64,000 bases of DNA, from NCBI GenBank assembly GCA_000165345.1, contig CM000430.1:864001-928000 (forward strand). Reading direction: 5' to 3'. Positions 1-64,000 of this stretch are shown in pieces; the stretch's first letter is position 1; each line of letters opens with the position of its first letter. The translations under genes were made by a program, and so were the position numbers. Under the pieces are notes generated by a model. The model did no database searches. It saw nothing but the letters and a program-made list of their open reading frames with translations, and had not been told where the DNA came from.

Positions 1-13
1 AAGAACATATGAA

Positions 14-3000
14 ATGTATTGGAGAGGAAAAAGATTATGGCTATCAGGTTTTTCAGAAATATTTAGTTTTTGTTCAAGTTATTTTTCTCAAGCCATATTA
101 TTTACATCTCTTGGATTATTATTTAAAAAATACTATGGACAATTTTCTATTCCAGCTACAGCAACTGTACCTATAATTTTTTCTTTAAATACATTATTTA
201 CTTCAGTAAGTATGCTTCCAGATGAACTTGGATATGTTGTACAAGGCTTTGTAAGTTTAGCTAGAATACAAACATTCTTATTTTCCAGAATTTATGATTA
301 TCCTATCTTAAAAGATAGAGAATTTGTTTCTAACCAAAATAACAAAAATATCTGTTGTGGCATCATTAATAAGGGTAAAAATATGATTAATCAAGAAGAT
401 ATTAATATAATTGAAAAACAAGTTATTGAGGAAACATTTCAAAAAGTTGCCTTGTGGTATATTAATGCAACTTTTGCTAGACAAATATATGATGATCCTG
501 TATATAGATATCTTCATCAATTAGGCTATTTGAGATCATGTGGAGGAATGGATCTTGTATATAAGCAAATTTATAATCATAAAAATAAACAAGAAAATTG
601 TATTTTAAATTTTGATGAAATTAATTCTGATGAAGATAAGTCACAATTGGTAAATATGACAACATTAACAGAAATAGCATCATTTAAAAAGAAATTTTCT
701 TTTGATAAACAAAATATTGAAAAAATTCTCAAGTATTTTGAGACTTCTCACGAGAATAATTCATTAGGGAATTGGGAATCTTTCGATTATAATATCAATT
801 CTGAGTCTGATTTTATTATGTTGGGAAAATTAAATCCCTGTCTAATTGATCTAAATATTAAAGTTAATTATGGTGAAATTTGCTTTATTATTGGTGATCA
901 TGGATCTGGTAAAACAACATTTATTGAAGCTATTCTTGGCGATTTATTTAGAATTCGAGGTGATACTTATTTGGGTACAGAAATTAATCAAAATGATAAA
1001 ATTTCAAGAAATGTTGAAATTATTAATTCTAATCCATGGATACCTTTTGGTACTTTTAAAGATGTAATATTAGCAGGAAGAGAATATAATACAGAAATCA
1101 TGGAATGCGTAATTCAAGTTTGTCAGTTAATAACAGATTTGAAAATGTGGCAATTAGGTTATAATCATTTAATTGAAGAATATGGCAATAATTTGAGCAA
1201 TGGTCAAAGAGCAAGAGTATCTTTAGCAAGATCTATTTATCAGAATTATATTAATATTAATGGTAATCATAATGAAATTAATCAAAGAAAGAAAAGAATT
1301 ATATGTATGGATTCAATTTTTGAACATATGGATCCAAACGTGACTATGGGTATATTGAATTCTTTATTTTCTTTAAAGATGCATATGGAAAACCATAATA
1401 TTAGTAAATATGATAAATATGTCTTAGATATGATTATACCATCCAGAAGGCAAGAAGATTGTGCAGTTATTATAACTTTGAATGAGCCAACTCTTTCTTA
1501 TATTATGAGAAAAGATAGTTTTCAGACTGATTTTAAATTAAGGTTCTTTAGGATCAGTGAAATGACAATTAAGGAGATGACATATGATCAAGTTCTTGAT
1601 GAAATTGTCTTAAAATCGGATGCTAACTTTGATTTTGTTCAAGAATCTAATGATTATTTAGTTCAATCTAGCCAACAAGATCAGGATCAAGTTCAAGCTC
1701 AAGGTCAGGCTCAAGGTCAAGCTCAAGGTCAAGCTCAAGGTCAAGACCAAAAACAAAGTCAAAACCAAAATAACCAATTAAATGACAATAGAACAAGTGA
1801 AAATCATAATCAACAAGAAGATTATGCGGGAAATGAAGAGAATGATCAAGATCTTGAAATCATAAGATTGGCTTCCAAAGAGAATAATGATAGCAAAACC
1901 TCCTGCTCAAATTCTAGAAGGAATTCTTTAAGTACTCCAATAATTTCTTTTGGAGAAAATGGATTACTTAGAGCAATGGAAATTGAAATTAGTAAATTAT
2001 TATCAAAATCCGAAAATTCCGAAGATTCAAATGACAATGATGATAATGGTACTAACAATAATGGAAAAGACGTCAAAAATCATTTGATGAATGATCCAAA
2101 TTCATTTGACGAAAATTTTTTGGAATTATCAGGACATGTTAAACTTGAAAGTTATTCATGGTATTTATTTGGATTTTTTGGAAAGAAAAATATTATTCTT
2201 TTAATTATTTTATTCATTTTATTATCATTATTAATTTGTTCAATTGATACAATAGTTATACTTTGGAGTGGAACTGACTTAGATATGAGAAGAGAAATGA
2301 TGTTAAAAAGACAATTTGATTATGAAGCTATTTCAAATCTTGGATTCAAGTATATGATGGTATTTGTTGGTATTACAATTATTGCTTGTATTATTAAAAT
2401 TACTGCAACTTATATTGAAATTAACTCAATTTTAAGATCTGCAATCATTCTACATAATAGAATATTATTTGAAATGATTATTTCTCCATTAACATTTTTT
2501 GATTCTCAAGATTCACAATCATTGGTTAATATATTCTCAATGGATCTTGGTATTATTGATGGTGAATTAAATCTTGGAATAATATTAAAATTCTTCTCAG
2601 CTATGGCATCTCAAGGTTATATTATTTGGTCTAGTCCTATTTGTATATTAATATATCCAATTTTAATATGGTATTACTTTAAGTATATATTTAAACCAAC
2701 CAGAATTCAAACCAGAGAAAGTTATAGATTCTTATTAAATACATATGGTCCTTTATGTAATAAGACTGAATGTAATATAAGAGGATCTTCTACTATTAGA
2801 AATATGGGATTTTCTGAATATTATAAAAAAGATACAAGTAATGTATTATATATATTACAAAAAACTTTCTACTATAGCTATGCTATAGGAATATGGAGAT
2901 TAATTCGTACTTTATTTTGTGGCATATTATTAATGTTTGTGTTATTTATATGTCCAACTATTTCCAGAATACTTAATTTTGAGCTTCCATTATGGATTAC

Positions 3001-4543
3001 AAGATTTGCACATAGTTTTCAATCAGGTTTACTTTCAAGTTTTTTGGTATTATCATTAACAATTATTATTGCTTTTCCTAATACAATTACATCTTTAATT
3101 ACTGATTTTATTGATTTGGAGAAGAATATGTGTTCTGTACAAAGATTTCAAATACTTGAGAAGCAGATTAATCATTCAATATTTATTGATAAAAATAAGA
3201 GTCAATCATCAATTGAAACTTTTAGTGAGATTAATATACCAAATAATGAATTATTGAAAAATGATAATTCAAATAATAATAATAATAATAATAATAATAA
3301 TAAGCAATTATTACTGGATTCTATTTCAGATACTTGTATGAATTTACTAATCAAGAAGAAACATGGATTATTAATTAACAATATTGTAATGTCTTATTAT
3401 AACAATTCAAATGTGATCTTTGATCATTTATATATGTCAATTCTTCCAGGAGAACATATTGGTTTAATAGGAAGAACAGGATCTGGAAAATCATCATTAT
3501 TTCAATGTATATTGGGTAATTATAAATTAGATAGTGGTTTTATTTCTTTAGATGGGATTAATATTGAATTAAAGAATAATAATAATAATTTAGATTTCAA
3601 TTTAACTAATAATAGTAAAATAAGTAATTTAGTAAAGAATATTCCAAAGCAAATGTATGGTCATACTATATTTGAAGATTGTATTAAAGAGATGTATAAG
3701 AGTAACGTTGGAAGAAATCAATTTATAGGTTATATACCTCAGAATAGTATATTTATTAAGAATTGGAGGGTAAGAGATTATATTGATCCATTTCAAGAAT
3801 TTTCTGATGATGATATTTGGAAAGCTGTTAAAGATTTAAGTTTTGAACCATTATTTAAAGGTTTACCTAATGGATTGGAATCGATAGTATATTCTGATAA
3901 TTATTCTGATAATATTAATAAGATGATGAATAACAATAATAATAATAATAATAATAATAACAATACAAGTAATCATCATAATAAGATTCAGAATAAGAGA
4001 AATAGTAATATGCAATTAAATAGTAAGAATTTGGATCATATTAATCACAAATATTTATTTTCATTATCTCAATTACGTTTAATTTCATTATTAAGAGTAT
4101 ATTTAAATTCTTCTAAATATAAGATTATCTTGGTTGATGAACCACCAATTATTCATAATAAAGAGAAGAATAAGGTTAAAGATTTGAAAAAATCTCAAAA
4201 TAATATATTGAATATTAGAATTCATCAAGATAAAATCAAGGGTAGTGGAAATAGACGTCAGATTAATATTAAGTTTAATAACAGTTTTGATTATGAAATT
4301 GATAATAATGAAAATAAAGATGATGGTGATGATGATAATAATAAGATTCCATCAATATCTTATTTAATAAATAAATATTTCAGACATTGTATAGTAATAA
4401 TAATAGCTCATCATATGGAATCAATAGAATTTTGTGATAAAGTTTATATTATGGGTAAAGGAAAGATAGAGAAAATGATTGATTTGAAAGAAAAGATTAA
4501 TTATGATAATTTACAGAATATATTTAAATTGATACACAGCTAA
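14..4543 (+). CDS. ABC transporter, ABCC/MRP-like full transporter (TMD-NBD-TMD-NBD); 5' end runs off the window
   Basis: 1509-aa ORF. It begins inside the end of TMD1 ([17 protein letters not shown], the ABCC-type linker). NBD1 has Walker [10 protein letters not shown] and signature [14 protein letters not shown]2 follows, with about 6 hydrophobic helices at aa ~730-1010. NBD2 has Walker [11 protein letters not shown], Walker B ILVDEPP and a degenerate signature [10 protein letters not shown]. There is no in-frame stop between nt 2 and 14, so the N-terminus lies upstream of the window. Confidence 0.85.
3272..3304 (+). repeat. (AAT)11 coding microsatellite (poly-N); a second copy sits at 3936..3962 in the same gene
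   Basis: Both runs lie in the NBD2 region of the ABC transporter and encode N11-12. Confidence 0.9.
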
Positions 4544-62805: not shown

Positions 62806-62829
62806 TTTTATTTTTTTTTTTTTTTTTTT
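62806..62829. repeat. Poly(dT) run of about 22 nt
   Basis: Read directly from the sequence. It lies 90 bp downstream of the cyclophilin stop codon. Confidence 0.9.
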
Positions 62830-63066
62830 GCTAAGCTATTAGGACTCCTTATTCCCTGCCTCATTCTGCTGCTTTATGGGACAGCTTCTGATGAATCATA
62901 TAGAAAATATCTTTTCTAAACTTGTTTCCTTCAAACTTGTACTCCCTTCTGGAGCCGAGGTATGTCATTATAGGCACCCTTGCTGGTTTGTTTACGTAGA
63001 TCTCTAAAAGCCGTTAGTATTTCTACATCCATTCAACCAAGTTAAGTTAGCAATGTAAGAATGGTA

Positions 63067-64000
63067 TTATTCTCCTTGAAAAGAGATAATTGATTGAATC
63101 AAATCTGATTTTCTTGCCCTCTGGCTGATCTCCAATTGAAGTTTACTACAAACATCCTTTAACTCAATAACCTTCATAGAATTTAATATATTCTCATCAT
63201 AATGAGGAATCTTAGCAATTTTTGCTACTTTGCTCGTCTTTTTACCTGATTTCTTTGATTCTACGGATGATGATTTACTAGACCTTCCTGACCCTGACTT
63301 TTCTTTCTCAATAGTCTTCAATTCAGGAGCATTCTCAACTTCCGGATTTGCAGCTTCTGCTGCTTTCACAACACGATTCCTAAGTAAAGGAGCTCTTAGT
63401 CTACCCAAATTAGTCTTTCCTAACACACTTTTCAAAGGATTTTCCTCCTTTTCCAACTTCTCTTCTTGAATAATAGGCTCAGTATCCTTGCTAATACTCT
63501 TTTTAGATTCTGAACTATCTTCATTTTGTGGACGCCTTAAACGACTCTTTTTTAAAGTGGGAGCCTCTTTAGAAACTTTATTCGTTGAATTATTTTCATC
63601 TGCATGTTCTTCCTGTGTTCTTTTCTTAGACTTGATTTTGGATGCAATTTGCTTTTCATCATTACCTTGAACTACTTTTTCAGAGGTAATCTTTTCATTC
63701 AGTAACTTTTCAATCTGAGCATTCATCTCATTTAACTGAGTCTTTAAACTGTTCTTTTCCTCGGTGAGCTCGCTCAACTTCTTTTCATAATCTTTATTCA
63801 TCTGTTGAAAATCTTTTGAAGATTTTTCAAGTTCAAAAATCTTCTTTTCCTTGGATTCCATATCTAATTCTCTCAAGCTTAATTGTTCAGTAATTCTCGC
63901 AACCTCCCCTTGCAAGATCTCATTTTCATGTTCCAATTCACCCATACCCATCATCTGATCCCTTAATATATCAATATATGCTTCAAATTTTCGAGTTTCA
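63067..64000 (-). CDS. SAP-domain coiled-coil protein (5' end beyond the window)
   Basis: The C-terminal SAP motif is LNSMKVIELKDVCSKLQLEISQRARKSDLIQSIISF, preceded by a K/E-rich coiled coil. The frame stays open from 63954 to the window edge, so the CDS continues upstream on the minus strand. Confidence 0.6.
   Translation of the reverse strand, partial: ETRKFEAYIDILRDQMMGMGELEHENEILQGEVARITEQLSLRELDMESKEKKIFELEKSSKDFQQMNKDYEKKLSELTEEKNSLKTQLNEMNAQIEKLLNEKITSEKVVQGNDEKQIASKIKSKKRTQEEHADENNSTNKVSKEAPTLKKSRLRRPQNEDSSESKKSISKDTEPIIQEEKLEKEENPLKSVLGKTNLGRLRAPLLRNRVVKAAEAANPEVENAPELKTIEKEKSGSGRSSKSSSVESKKSGKKTSKVAKIAKIPHYDENILNSMKVIELKDVCSKLQLEISQRARKSDLIQSIISFQGE

What the first reader, a model, noticed from the sequence alone, without database searches (positions are those of the whole stretch)
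1..64000. Taxonomic inference from sequence features alone
The supporting evidence is as follows. The genome has the standard code, about 70% AT and about 2.2 kb per gene. Introns are few and short. E2F-like sites plus TGCATGCA define the promoter code. An SF-assemblin-like gene and a CREC or ERC-like ER protein are present. Together these best fit a compact alveolate genome of the Cryptosporidium or gregarine type, since Plasmodium lacks E2F/DP. The FABP-like gene and the long poly-Q/H and poly-N tracts are more reminiscent of dictyostelids. The assignment therefore remains open. Resolving it changes how the FABP, RAD51-paralog and SF-assemblin findings should be read.
Basis: inference. Interest (0 to 1): 0.5.

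Follow-up and report, generated by a model that had tools for sequence, protein, structure and literature searches.

The report
Cryptosporidium parvum chromosome 2 segment

Summary
Every base of the window lies in a stretch 100% identical to published C. parvum chromosome 2 assemblies: about 870.8-934.8 kb of CP029781.1, or the complement of about 58.1-122.1 kb of IOWA-ATCC CP044421.1. Identity falls to 95.5-97.9% against C. hominis and C. tyzzeri. Thirteen proteins tested are residue-for-residue C. parvum Iowa II proteins, including EF-1beta (cgd2_3950) and cyclophilin (cgd2_4120, PDB 2PLU).

- AT content is 72.8%.
- There are 29 genes, or 2.2 kb per gene.
- The standard code is used.
- Seven genes carry 12 introns of 62-178 nt.
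- E2F-like GGCGCC sites and TGCATGCA are 20- to 80-fold enriched and almost exclusively intergenic. These are the published C. parvum upstream motifs.
- An SF-assemblin gene, an ER EF-hand protein ending in RDEL, two RAD51-like genes, and poly-N and poly-Q/H tracts are all present.

The dictyostelid alternative is rejected. The FABP-like gene that motivated it has named relatives only in Cryptosporidium, gregarines and chromerids.

The taxonomic result is ordinary and already known. One modest by-product is that this FABP-like domain forms a family with no Pfam hit, distantly related to animal intracellular lipid-binding proteins.

The parts
1..4543 (+). ABC transporter, C-terminal 1509 aa of a 1928-aa gene that starts upstream of the window
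   Evidence: Pfam ABC_tran 5.5e-21; gene called at this place in CP029781.1
4578..6071 (-). Rad51-like AAA protein, 497 aa, with poly-N runs
   Evidence: Pfam Rad51 22.5 bits against cut-off 22, Walker A region only; exact match to C. parvum EAK88644.1; the orthologues are named Rad51-like AAA domain protein (the sources print 'ad51-like')
6757..7953 (+). Protein kinase, 398 aa
   Evidence: Pfam Pkinase 4.3e-37; exact protein found on C. parvum chromosome contigs
7970..11695 (-). 1241-aa protein rich in poly-N runs
   Evidence: Exact match to C. parvum EAK88642.1; C. hominis orthologue is CHM_2g3900; no Pfam hit
12880..13338 (+). Enhancer-of-rudimentary homologue, 106 aa; introns at 12986-13061 and 13183-13244
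   Evidence: Called gene with PF01133; unique GT..AG two-intron model reproduces 106 aa
14165..14813 (+). 167-aa hypothetical protein; introns at 14321-14393 and 14562-14633
   Evidence: Called gene; unique splice model
15268..18975 (-). MIF4G-domain protein, 1235 aa, with a 75-residue Q/H tract (residues 184-258)
   Evidence: Pfam MIF4G 2.1e-30; Q/H tract; period-3 repeat at 18202-18453
20248..21399 (+). Deoxyhypusine synthase, 362 aa; intron at 21019-21081 (63 nt)
   Evidence: Pfam DS 4.5e-70; the spliced product is an exact match to C. parvum EAZ51414.1
21441..22614 (-). FABP-like protein, 276 aa, four exons; introns at 22382-22301, 22171-22089 and 21679-21502. The C-terminal ~150 aa form the lipid-binding-protein-like domain
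   Evidence: Spliced product is an exact match to 'putative fatty acid binding protein' KAL5370191.1. PDB profile hits are all intracellular lipid-binding proteins (iLBPs), best E = 1.6e-6. hhalign gives 96.4%. Foldseek top 36 hits are all CRABP/FABP. No Pfam hit
23562..24305 (+). Translation elongation factor 1 beta (cgd2_3950), 247 aa
   Evidence: Exact match to EAK88639.1, named Cgd2_3950 protein; Pfam EF1_GNE
24797..26278 (+). V-type ATPase subunit H, 493 aa
   Evidence: Exact match to EAK88638.1; Pfam V-ATPase_H_N and V-ATPase_H_C
27198..27988 (+). RRM RNA-binding protein, 217 aa; introns at 27268-27331 and 27680-27752
   Evidence: Called gene with RRM_1; unique splice model
29940..31697 (+). 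Myb-domain protein, 585 aa, with a 16-residue poly-N run
   Evidence: Pfam Myb_DNA-binding 1.9e-12; called gene; poly-N run
32405..33754 (+). ER-type EF-hand calcium-binding protein, 449 aa, hydrophobic N-terminal leader, C-terminal RDEL (CREC/ERC-like)
   Evidence: Exact match to EAK88636.1, 'protein with signal peptide, ER retention motif and 4x EF hands'; Pfam EF-hand families
34000..34404 (-). 134-aa hypothetical protein
   Evidence: Called gene in C. parvum assemblies; no Pfam hit
34794..35642 (-). SF-assemblin-like (striated fibre assemblin) protein, 282 aa
   Evidence: Pfam PF06705 1.1e-7, 31.9 bits against cut-off 30.6; 5 of 8 Cryptosporidium orthologues carry PF06705
36220..36948 (+). 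242-aa hypothetical protein
   Evidence: Called gene; no Pfam hit
37684..40086 (+). 800-aa hypothetical protein
   Evidence: Exact match to EAK88633.1; C. hominis orthologue is CHM_2g4030
40103..44533 (-). SNF2-family helicase, 1476 aa
   Evidence: Pfam SNF2-rel_dom 1.8e-33 and Helicase_C; exact protein on C. parvum contigs
45604..47949 (-). Patatin-like phospholipase with DUF3336, 781 aa
   Evidence: Pfam Patatin 3.7e-29 and DUF3336 2.5e-29; called gene
49261..51144 (+). Hydrophobic, probably multi-pass membrane protein, 627 aa. The IOWA-ATCC annotation gives 742 aa, which implies a start at 48916
   Evidence: Called genes; the 48916 start is my calculation from the 742-aa length and the ORF; no Pfam hit
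51336..52324 (-). RAD51/RecA-family paralogue, 304 aa; intron at 52138-52065 (74 nt)
   Evidence: Spliced product is an exact match to EAZ51415.1; Pfam Rad51 1.2e-12, 48.1 bits
52746..53834 (-). Replication protein A2 (CpRPA2), 362 aa
   Evidence: Exact match to EAK88628.1, 'RP-A, OB fold single strand binding protein'; its cluster also holds AAP37459.1, 'replication protein A2'
54976..56964 (+). LSG1 / YjeQ-type large-subunit GTPase, 662 aa
   Evidence: Pfam MMR_HSR1 1.3e-15; exact match; C. hominis orthologue is named Large subunit GTPase 1
57193..57540 (-). 115-aa hydrophobic, probably membrane protein
   Evidence: Called gene
58457..59052 (+). 163-aa hypothetical protein; intron at 58661-58764 (104 nt)
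   Evidence: Called gene; unique splice model
59531..61825 (+). Ubiquitin-conjugating-enzyme-like protein, 764 aa, with 36-nt (12-aa) tandem repeats at 61406-61562
   Evidence: Pfam UQ_con 27 bits, at the cut-off; called gene; tandem repeats
62202..62720 (+). 20k cyclophilin CpCyP18 (cgd2_4120; PDB 2PLU, 2POY), 172 aa
   Evidence: Exact match to A3FQA7 / EAZ51416.1; gene ID and PDB codes from PMC11357558
63067..64000 (-). SAP-domain protein, 340 aa, running off the right end of the window
   Evidence: Called gene at 63067-64089; Pfam SAP 3.7e-5, just below the cut-off
6396..58119 (.). Twelve TGCATGCA (ApiAP2 'AP2_1') sites, starting at 6396, 6430, 13643, 13754, 26639, 37284, 37609, 45367, 45398, 54341, 54561 and 58112
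   Evidence: 12 found against 0.53 expected. All are intergenic and all lie in promoter-containing spacers. They match the published motif BGCATGCAH (PMC3734150)
12342..59327 (.). E2F-like sites. TTGGCGCC / TGGCGCCA type at 12342-12351, 12407-12416, 22846-22855, 23258-23267, 23276-23285, 24585-24594, 35942-35949, 44804-44813 and 59316-59327. Two exact TTTGGCGGGAA sites, within 24642-24653 and 34552-34563
   Evidence: DTTGSCGCCH gives 9 against 0.15 expected. GGCGCCA gives 18 against 0.21. TTTGGCGGGAAV with up to 1 mismatch gives 6 against 0.14. GGCGCC is intergenic at 12 of 13 sites

Best explanation
The window is a 64-kb piece of the nuclear genome of Cryptosporidium parvum (Apicomplexa, Alveolata). 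It lies on chromosome 2, roughly 870.8-934.8 kb of the 992-kb chromosome, running from before cgd2_3900 to just past cgd2_4120.

It carries 29 tightly packed genes read with the standard code. Most are single-exon; seven are split by short introns, each with GT..AG ends.

Genes are separated by short AT-rich spacers. These spacers, and almost only these, carry the two commonest published C. parvum upstream motif families. One is the E2F-like GGCGCC / TTTGGCGGGAA type. The other is the palindrome TGCATGCA. By inference, E2F/DP1 factors bind the first. In published binding-array work, ApiAP2 proteins cgd2_3490 and cgd1_3520 bind the second. Many of the spacers lie between divergently transcribed genes and so act as shared promoters.

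Shown here: sequence identity, gene map, introns, motif enrichment and motif placement. Taken from the literature or inferred: which factors bind the motifs.
For: - Nucleotide identity: every one of the 64,000 bases lies in a 100%-identical alignment to a C. parvum chromosome locus, CP029781.1 and/or IOWA-ATCC CP044421.1.
- Sister species: identity to C. hominis is 95.5% over 18.3 kb and 97.1-97.9% near the right end; to C. tyzzeri it is 97.2-97.4%.
- Proteins: exact matches to named C. parvum Iowa II proteins include EF-1beta 'Cgd2_3950', V-ATPase H, the ER EF-hand protein, cyclophilin A3FQA7 (cgd2_4120), DHS, RPA2, LSG1, both RAD51-like proteins and the FABP-like protein. Orthologues from other Cryptosporidium species fall as separate, non-identical cluster members.
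- Gene order is collinear with the called genes of the assemblies.
- Motif statistics. The motifs equal those published for C. parvum upstream regions (PMC3734150; PMC4117751).
Against: Nothing found argues against it. Which C. parvum assembly the window was cut from cannot be decided. CP029781.1 differs by 3 bases of indel in the 14.8-36.3 kb part. I fetched IOWA-ATCC loci for only about half the window. Window GC (27.2%) is a little below the roughly 30% usually quoted for the whole genome (my own knowledge), which is normal local variation.
Confidence: 0.99

Rival explanations
1. The window comes from a dictyostelid or other amoebozoan genome. This was the reader's alternative, based on the FABP-like gene and the long poly-Q/H and poly-N tracts.
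For: Bulk features are compatible: AT-rich, compact, short introns, and homopolymeric amino-acid tracts.
Against: The window is 100% identical to C. parvum chromosome 2. No dictyostelid protein appeared among relatives of the FABP-like or SF-assemblin genes. Named FABP-like relatives are all Cryptosporidium, gregarines or chromerids. TGCATGCA, an ApiAP2 site, is enriched about 20-fold in the spacers.
Confidence: 0.001
2. The window comes from a sister species of the intestinal Cryptosporidium clade (C. hominis, C. tyzzeri, C. meleagridis) rather than C. parvum.
For: Gene order and most proteins are nearly the same. The cyclophilin is identical in three Cryptosporidium taxa, C. hominis among them.
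Against: Identity is only 95.5-97.9% to C. hominis and 97.2-97.4% to C. tyzzeri, against 100% to C. parvum. The EF-1beta, V-ATPase H and ER EF-hand proteins match the C. parvum sequences exactly, whereas the orthologues from the other species are separate, non-identical entries.
Confidence: 0.005
3. The window comes from a gregarine or another AT-rich apicomplexan such as Plasmodium.
For: The SF-assemblin and FABP-like families also occur in gregarines and chromerids. AT richness fits Plasmodium.
Against: The closest named gregarine relative of the FABP-like domain is only 26% identical. E2F-like sites dominate the spacers, and E2F/DP1 is reported absent from other studied apicomplexans (PMC4117751). 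Identity to C. parvum is 100%.
Confidence: 0.001

Closest known systems
Cryptosporidium parvum Iowa II / IOWA-ATCC reference genome, chromosome 2 (gene IDs anchored here: cgd2_3950, cgd2_4120)
   Same: Nucleotide sequence (100%), gene order, protein sequences, intron positions and upstream motifs are all the same.
   Different: Nothing of substance differs. Gene models vary between annotations of the same sequence. The FABP-like gene is given as 124, 276 or 284 aa, the RAD51 paralogue as 304 or 321 aa, and the membrane protein as 627 or 742 aa.
Published C. parvum upstream motif families: E2F-like (DTTGSCGCCH, TTTGGCGGGAAV) and AP2_1 (BGCATGCAH), from Oberstaller et al. 2013 and 2014 (PMC3734150, PMC4117751)
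   Same: The same consensus sequences are strongly enriched and confined to promoter-containing spacers in this window.
   Different: The papers list about 11 motif families, including G-box, GAGA-like and CAAT-box-like. Three of 27 genes here have neither motif upstream.
Animal intracellular lipid-binding proteins (FABP4, myelin P2, CRABP2; Pfam PF00061), compared with the FABP-like gene at 21441-22614
   Same: The N-terminal half aligns, with the G-x-W ... S-[ED]-N/x-[FLM]-[DE] ... G-[VI] ... K/R-R-K pattern. The profile against PDB gives E = 1.6e-6 and all 60 hits listed are of this family. hhalign gives 96.4%. The model predicts one helix plus ten strands, and the Foldseek top 36 hits are all CRABP/FABP.
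   Different: No Pfam PF00061 hit. The C-terminal half does not align. The protein carries a ~120-aa N-terminal extension. The structure model has only moderate confidence (pLDDT 60). Named relatives are in Cryptosporidium, gregarines and chromerids, not animals.
Striated fibre assemblins of green algae and Apicomplexa (Toxoplasma SFA proteins, PMC3519896)
   Same: Pfam SF-assemblin is matched above its cut-off. Some orthologues are named after a Plasmodium gene (MAL7P1.13-like).
   Different: The match is marginal (31.9 against 30.6 bits) and covers 149 of 247 profile positions. Localisation and function in Cryptosporidium were not tested here.

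Membership tests
Cryptosporidium parvum nuclear genome, chromosome 2 | Near-100% nucleotide identity over the whole window to C. parvum assemblies | tested here: met
   All 64,000 bases are covered by 100%-identical alignments to CP029781.1 and/or CP044421.1 loci
Cryptosporidium parvum nuclear genome, chromosome 2 | Clearly lower identity to the closest sister species | tested here: met
   C. hominis 95.5% over 18.3 kb and 97.1-97.9% near the right end; C. 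tyzzeri 97.2-97.4%
Cryptosporidium parvum nuclear genome, chromosome 2 | Same gene order and exact protein sequences as the annotated chromosome | tested here: met
   Called genes are collinear. Thirteen proteins are exact matches to named C. parvum entries, including Cgd2_3950 and cgd2_4120
Cryptosporidium parvum nuclear genome, chromosome 2 | E2F-like and AP2_1 motifs over-represented upstream of genes | tested here: met
   compared with PMC3734150
Dictyostelid (Amoebozoa) genome | Closest relatives of the encoded proteins are dictyostelid | tested here: not met
   Exact matches are to C. parvum. Relatives of the FABP-like and SF-assemblin genes are Cryptosporidium, gregarines and chromerids only
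Gregarine genome | High identity to gregarine sequences | tested here: not met
   The only named gregarine genome hit (Gregarina niphandrodes GNI_143540) is 26% identical to the FABP-like domain
Intracellular lipid-binding protein / FABP family (Pfam PF00061), for gene 21441-22614 | Pfam PF00061 match above the gathering score | tested here: not met
   No PF00061 hit, even at E <= 1, for the full 276-aa protein. None in 9 family members either
Intracellular lipid-binding protein / FABP family (Pfam PF00061), for gene 21441-22614 | Significant sequence similarity to solved FABP / CRABP proteins | tested here: met
   The single sequence gives E of about 6e-4. The 15-sequence family profile gives E = 1.6e-6, and all 60 hits listed are of this family. 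hhalign gives 96.4%, E = 1.2e-9. Similarity covers the N-terminal ~80 residues only.
Intracellular lipid-binding protein / FABP family (Pfam PF00061), for gene 21441-22614 | Ten-stranded beta-barrel with a helix-turn-helix lid after strand A | tested here: inconclusive
   The domain model has ten strands and one helix, but mean pLDDT is 59.9 and the second-helix region is below 50. Foldseek's top 36 hits are all CRABP2/FABP, with TM 0.42-0.59
Intracellular lipid-binding protein / FABP family (Pfam PF00061), for gene 21441-22614 | Binds fatty acids or retinoids in the barrel cavity | not testable with these tools
   Needs a binding assay
SF-assemblin / beta-giardin (Pfam PF06705), for gene 34794-35642 | Pfam match above the gathering score | tested here: met
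   31.9 bits against 30.6, E = 1.1e-7. Five of 8 Cryptosporidium orthologues carry PF06705
RAD51/RecA family (Pfam PF08423) | Pfam match above the gathering score | tested here: met
   The 304-aa protein scores 48.1 bits against 22. The 497-aa protein scores 22.5 against 22, which is marginal and covers only the Walker A region
CREC family of ER EF-hand proteins (reticulocalbin / ERC type), for gene 32405-33754 | Signal peptide, multiple EF-hands, C-terminal ER retention signal | tested here: inconclusive
   EF-hand Pfam hits. The source name reads 'signal peptide, ER retention motif and 4x EF hands'. The sequence ends in RDEL. Four EF-hands are recognised, against the six or seven typical of CREC proteins (my own knowledge). 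No direct comparison with a CREC member was run

The most novel reading that the evidence does not exclude
The taxonomic question has no novel reading left. The most novel thing the evidence leaves open is a by-product concerning the 'FABP-like' gene.

This gene belongs to a family with no Pfam hit. Named members were found only in Cryptosporidium (intestinal species, and C. serpentis as a more distant member), gregarines (Gregarina, Trichotokara, Siedleckia) and chromerids (Vitrella, Chromera). The family is a distant relative of the intracellular lipid-binding proteins, which to my knowledge are regarded as an animal family. One paper states that Toxoplasma has no FABP candidate (PMC6199492).

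If the homology and lipid binding are real, there are two possible readings:
- the fold predates animals, or
- it was acquired early in the apicomplexan lineage and later lost in coccidia and blood parasites.
Probability: 0.45. Interest if true: 0.3.

Novelty: already known. Interest (0 to 1): 0.05.

Why it matters
Fixing the organism sets the frame for every other finding from this window. They are features of a published, annotated reference genome of a major diarrhoeal parasite.

- An SF-assemblin gene is expected in an apicomplexan, where these proteins organise daughter-cell budding in Toxoplasma (PMC3519896).
- The E2F-like and TGCATGCA sites are the known C. parvum promoter motifs.
- The RAD51-like genes, RPA2, cyclophilin and the others are already named.
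- The FABP-like gene should be read as a Cryptosporidium / gregarine / chromerid family, not as a dictyostelid or host-derived oddity.

Tried and rejected
- tRNA and Rfam scans of the whole window found nothing.
- The first Pfam scan of the 124-aa ORF at 21676-22050 gave no hit. The ORF proved to be one exon of a four-exon gene, and my first splice reconstruction was out of frame before the correct one.
- My first exact look-ups of minus-strand proteins failed because I had the coordinates off by the stop codon. I corrected them. Even then, the SF-assemblin-like and MIF4G proteins were not found as exact sequences, although the genes are called at those places.
- The AlphaFold model of the full 276-aa protein was unusable (pLDDT 37.5). 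The domain-only model reached only 59.9.
- Literature searches for a Cryptosporidium FABP returned only host-FABP biomarker papers. Searches for gene IDs found only cgd2_4120. A search for lipocalins across apicomplexans found the Plasmodium PV5 lipocalin, which that paper models on the bacterial lipocalin Blc. I did not compare it with the family here.
- The C. parvum / C. hominis comparison of intergenic regions was too close, at 92-99% everywhere, to reveal conserved non-coding elements.

Full report
**Question.** It kept a dictyostelid origin open because of an FABP-like gene and long poly-Q/H and poly-N tracts. I checked each listed feature and then identified the source directly.

**Identity of the window.**
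- Exact-sequence look-ups showed that the cyclophilin (62202-62720), EF-1beta (23562-24305), V-ATPase H (24797-26278) and the ER EF-hand protein (32405-33754) are residue-for-residue proteins of C. parvum Iowa II. The C. hominis, C. meleagridis, C. tyzzeri, C. canis, C. ubiquitum and other orthologues appear as separate cluster members. EF-1beta is named 'Cgd2_3950 protein'.
- The contigs encoding these proteins are chromosome-sized, about 990 kb.
- blastn of the window against the fetched loci gave 100.000% identity to C. parvum CP029781.1 and to IOWA-ATCC CP044421.1. Together the 100%-identical alignments cover all 64,000 bases.
- Identity to C. hominis is 97.1-97.9% near the right end and 95.5% (gaps counted) over 18.3 kb in the left half. 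Identity to C. tyzzeri is 97.2-97.4%.
- From the locus coordinates, the window corresponds to about 870.8-934.8 kb of the 992,414-bp CP029781.1, or the complement of about 58.1-122.1 kb of CP044421.1.
- After correcting splice models and coordinates, nine more proteins were exact matches to named C. parvum entries: deoxyhypusine synthase, RPA2, LSG1, both RAD51-like proteins, the FABP-like protein, and the 1241-aa and 800-aa hypothetical proteins among them.
- The cyclophilin A3FQA7 is cgd2_4120, solved as PDB 2PLU and 2POY (PMC11357558).

**Check of the observation.**
- Composition: GC is 27.2% (AT 72.8%), 28.8% in genes and 23.5% between them.
- Gene density: the assemblies' gene calls place 29 genes in the window, or 2.2 kb per gene. 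Genes span 71-72% of the sequence.
- Code: 27 complete coding sequences translate with the standard code without in-frame stops. They end in TAA (17), TAG (7) or TGA (3). GC3 is 20%.
- Introns: seven genes have introns, 12 in total, 62-178 nt long. Each begins with GT and ends with AG, and ten begin GTAAGT. For six genes a search for GT..AG models reproducing the annotated protein length gave a unique solution, or two equivalent ones. The four-exon FABP-like gene was reconstructed by hand and confirmed by exact match.
- Low-complexity tracts: asparagine is the commonest residue (10%). Poly-N runs reach 16 residues. The MIF4G protein has a 75-residue Q/H tract.

**Promoter motifs.**
- TGCATGCA occurs 12 times against 0.53 expected from dinucleotide shuffles.
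- GGCGCCA gives 18 strand-hits against 0.21 expected.
- The published consensus DTTGSCGCCH gives 9 against 0.15. TTTGGCGGGAAV with up to 1 mismatch gives 6 against 0.14. BGCATGCAH gives 23 strand-hits against 1.38.
- All 12 TGCATGCA sites and 12 of 13 GGCGCC sites are intergenic, although spacers are only 28% of the window and poorer in GC (P = 2.4e-7 and 2.3e-6).
- None lies in the nine convergent 3'-3' spacers. 24 of 27 genes have at least one of the two motif types in their upstream spacer.
- These are the motif families described for C. parvum upstream regions. There, E2F-like motifs are the most abundant, and TGCATGCA is bound by ApiAP2 proteins cgd2_3490 and cgd1_3520 (PMC3734150; PMC4117751).
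- The second paper also states that E2F/DP1 is absent from all studied apicomplexans except Cryptosporidium. 'Define the promoter code' is an overstatement, since other motif families are published.

**Named genes.** Pfam confirms all of the following:
- ABC transporter, protein kinase, MIF4G, deoxyhypusine synthase, EF1_GNE, V-ATPase H, RRM and Myb;
- EF-hands, SNF2 with Helicase_C, patatin with DUF3336, MMR_HSR1 (LSG1), cyclophilin and enhancer of rudimentary;
- near their cut-offs, UQ_con (27 bits, at the cut-off) and SAP (23.7 against 23.9 bits);
- SF-assemblin, 31.9 bits against a cut-off of 30.6;
- Rad51, at 48.1 bits for the 304-aa protein and a marginal 22.5 bits for the 497-aa protein.

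Orthologues of the SF-assemblin-like gene were found only in Cryptosporidium species by the word-indexed search. Five of the eight carry PF06705. Striated fibre assemblins are known apicomplexan proteins (PMC3519896).

**The dictyostelid alternative and the FABP-like gene.**
It is annotated 'putative fatty acid binding protein' in C. parvum.
- With the N-terminal strand restored, the C-terminal domain hits only intracellular lipid-binding proteins in the PDB: C. elegans LBP, FABP4, myelin P2 and CRABP2, at E from about 6e-4.
- An exhaustive HMMER search of 1.84 billion representative proteins found 20 relatives at E <= 1e-3, most matching the whole domain.
- The named ones are C. serpentis, the gregarines Siedleckia nematoides and Trichotokara eunicae, and the chromerids Vitrella brassicaformis and Chromera velia. 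A profile search added Gregarina niphandrodes.
- None of the nine family members scanned has a Pfam hit.
- A 15-sequence family profile raises the PDB match to E = 1.6e-6, with all 60 listed hits from the same family. hhalign against five animal members gives 96.4% probability over 78 columns.
- A domain-only AlphaFold model (pLDDT 59.9) has ten strands and a helix. Its top 36 Foldseek PDB hits are all CRABP2/FABP, with TM 0.42-0.59.
- So the gene is FABP-like, but its relatives are alveolate, not dictyostelid. One paper reports that no FABP candidate exists in Toxoplasma (PMC6199492).

**How it works.**
- Shown here: a compact apicomplexan chromosome segment in which short spacers hold the E2F-like and AP2-type sites. 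Seven of the spacers lie between divergent gene pairs.
- Taken from the literature or inferred: that E2F/DP1 and ApiAP2 factors bind these sites and drive transcription.

**Comparison and novelty.** The window is a member of a known thing in the strictest sense. It is the published sequence itself, and every membership feature tested was met. The finding is therefore already known and of low interest.

The only mildly new by-product is the phyletic pattern and remote iLBP relationship of the FABP-like family. I did not find this described in the searchable literature.

**What remains uncertain.**
- The exact source assembly is undecided.
- The correct acceptor of intron 2 in the FABP-like gene is unsettled.
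- The true fold and ligand of that domain are unknown.
- Its absence from coccidia and blood parasites is not established.

Noticed in passing
window 21441-22614 (-): The FABP-like domain belongs to a family with no Pfam hit. Named members were found only in Cryptosporidium (including C. serpentis), gregarines (Gregarina, Trichotokara, Siedleckia) and chromerids (Vitrella, Chromera). Conserved G-x-W, K-R, D-x-D-x-G-x-W and E-T-R motifs run through the family. It is a remote relative of animal FABP/CRABP proteins.
   Followed up: yes
window 22089-22171 (-), intron 2 of the FABP-like gene: Annotations of the same C. parvum sequence give 124, 276 or 284 aa; C. hominis and C. tyzzeri orthologues are annotated at 282 aa and C. 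meleagridis at 259 aa. The 276-aa model uses the acceptor at 22089 and loses 'KCIQDL' before the conserved G-S-W. The C. hominis, C. canis and C. felis models keep C-[IV]-Q-x-L-x-G-S-W, so the acceptor 18 nt upstream looks more likely to be correct.
   Followed up: partly
window 5762-5866, inside the Rad51-like gene 4578-6071 (-): Assembly GCA_035232765.1 (CP141119.1) appears to carry an extra 105-bp tandem copy of this segment. Its gene model there is cut to 270 aa. This could be a real in-frame duplication or an assembly artefact.
   Followed up: no
window 18202-18453 (-), MIF4G protein: The 75-residue Q/H tract is an 84-copy trinucleotide array. Its host protein varies in length between C. 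parvum assemblies (1235 against 1237 aa) and C. hominis (1213 aa). This gene is also the least conserved coding region against C. hominis, at 94.1%.
   Followed up: partly
window 61406-61562 (+), UBC-like protein: A 36-nt (12-aa, proline-rich 'QE[IT][SP]P[IT]') tandem repeat of about 4 copies. The protein is 764 aa in C. parvum, 764 or 752 aa in the two C. hominis assemblies, and 740 aa in C. tyzzeri. That suggests repeat-number variation.
   Followed up: no
window 27989-29939: The longest gene-free interval (1951 bp) lies upstream of the Myb gene, with (TA)n microsatellites at 29589-29792. It is 97.1% identical to C. hominis, close to the figure for several of the neighbouring genes. A long 5' UTR or an unannotated non-coding transcript is possible.
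   Followed up: no
window 47950-49260 and 52325-52745: These are the only promoter-containing spacers with neither an E2F-like nor a GCATGC site. They lie upstream of the patatin-like gene, the membrane-protein gene and the RAD51 paralogue. The first spacer shrinks if the 742-aa model (start at 48916) is right.
   Followed up: no
window 52746-53834 (-): This 362-aa ORF has no Pfam hit but is the known C. parvum replication protein A2. It sits next to the RAD51 paralogue (51336-52324), forming a small DNA-repair gene pair.
   Followed up: partly
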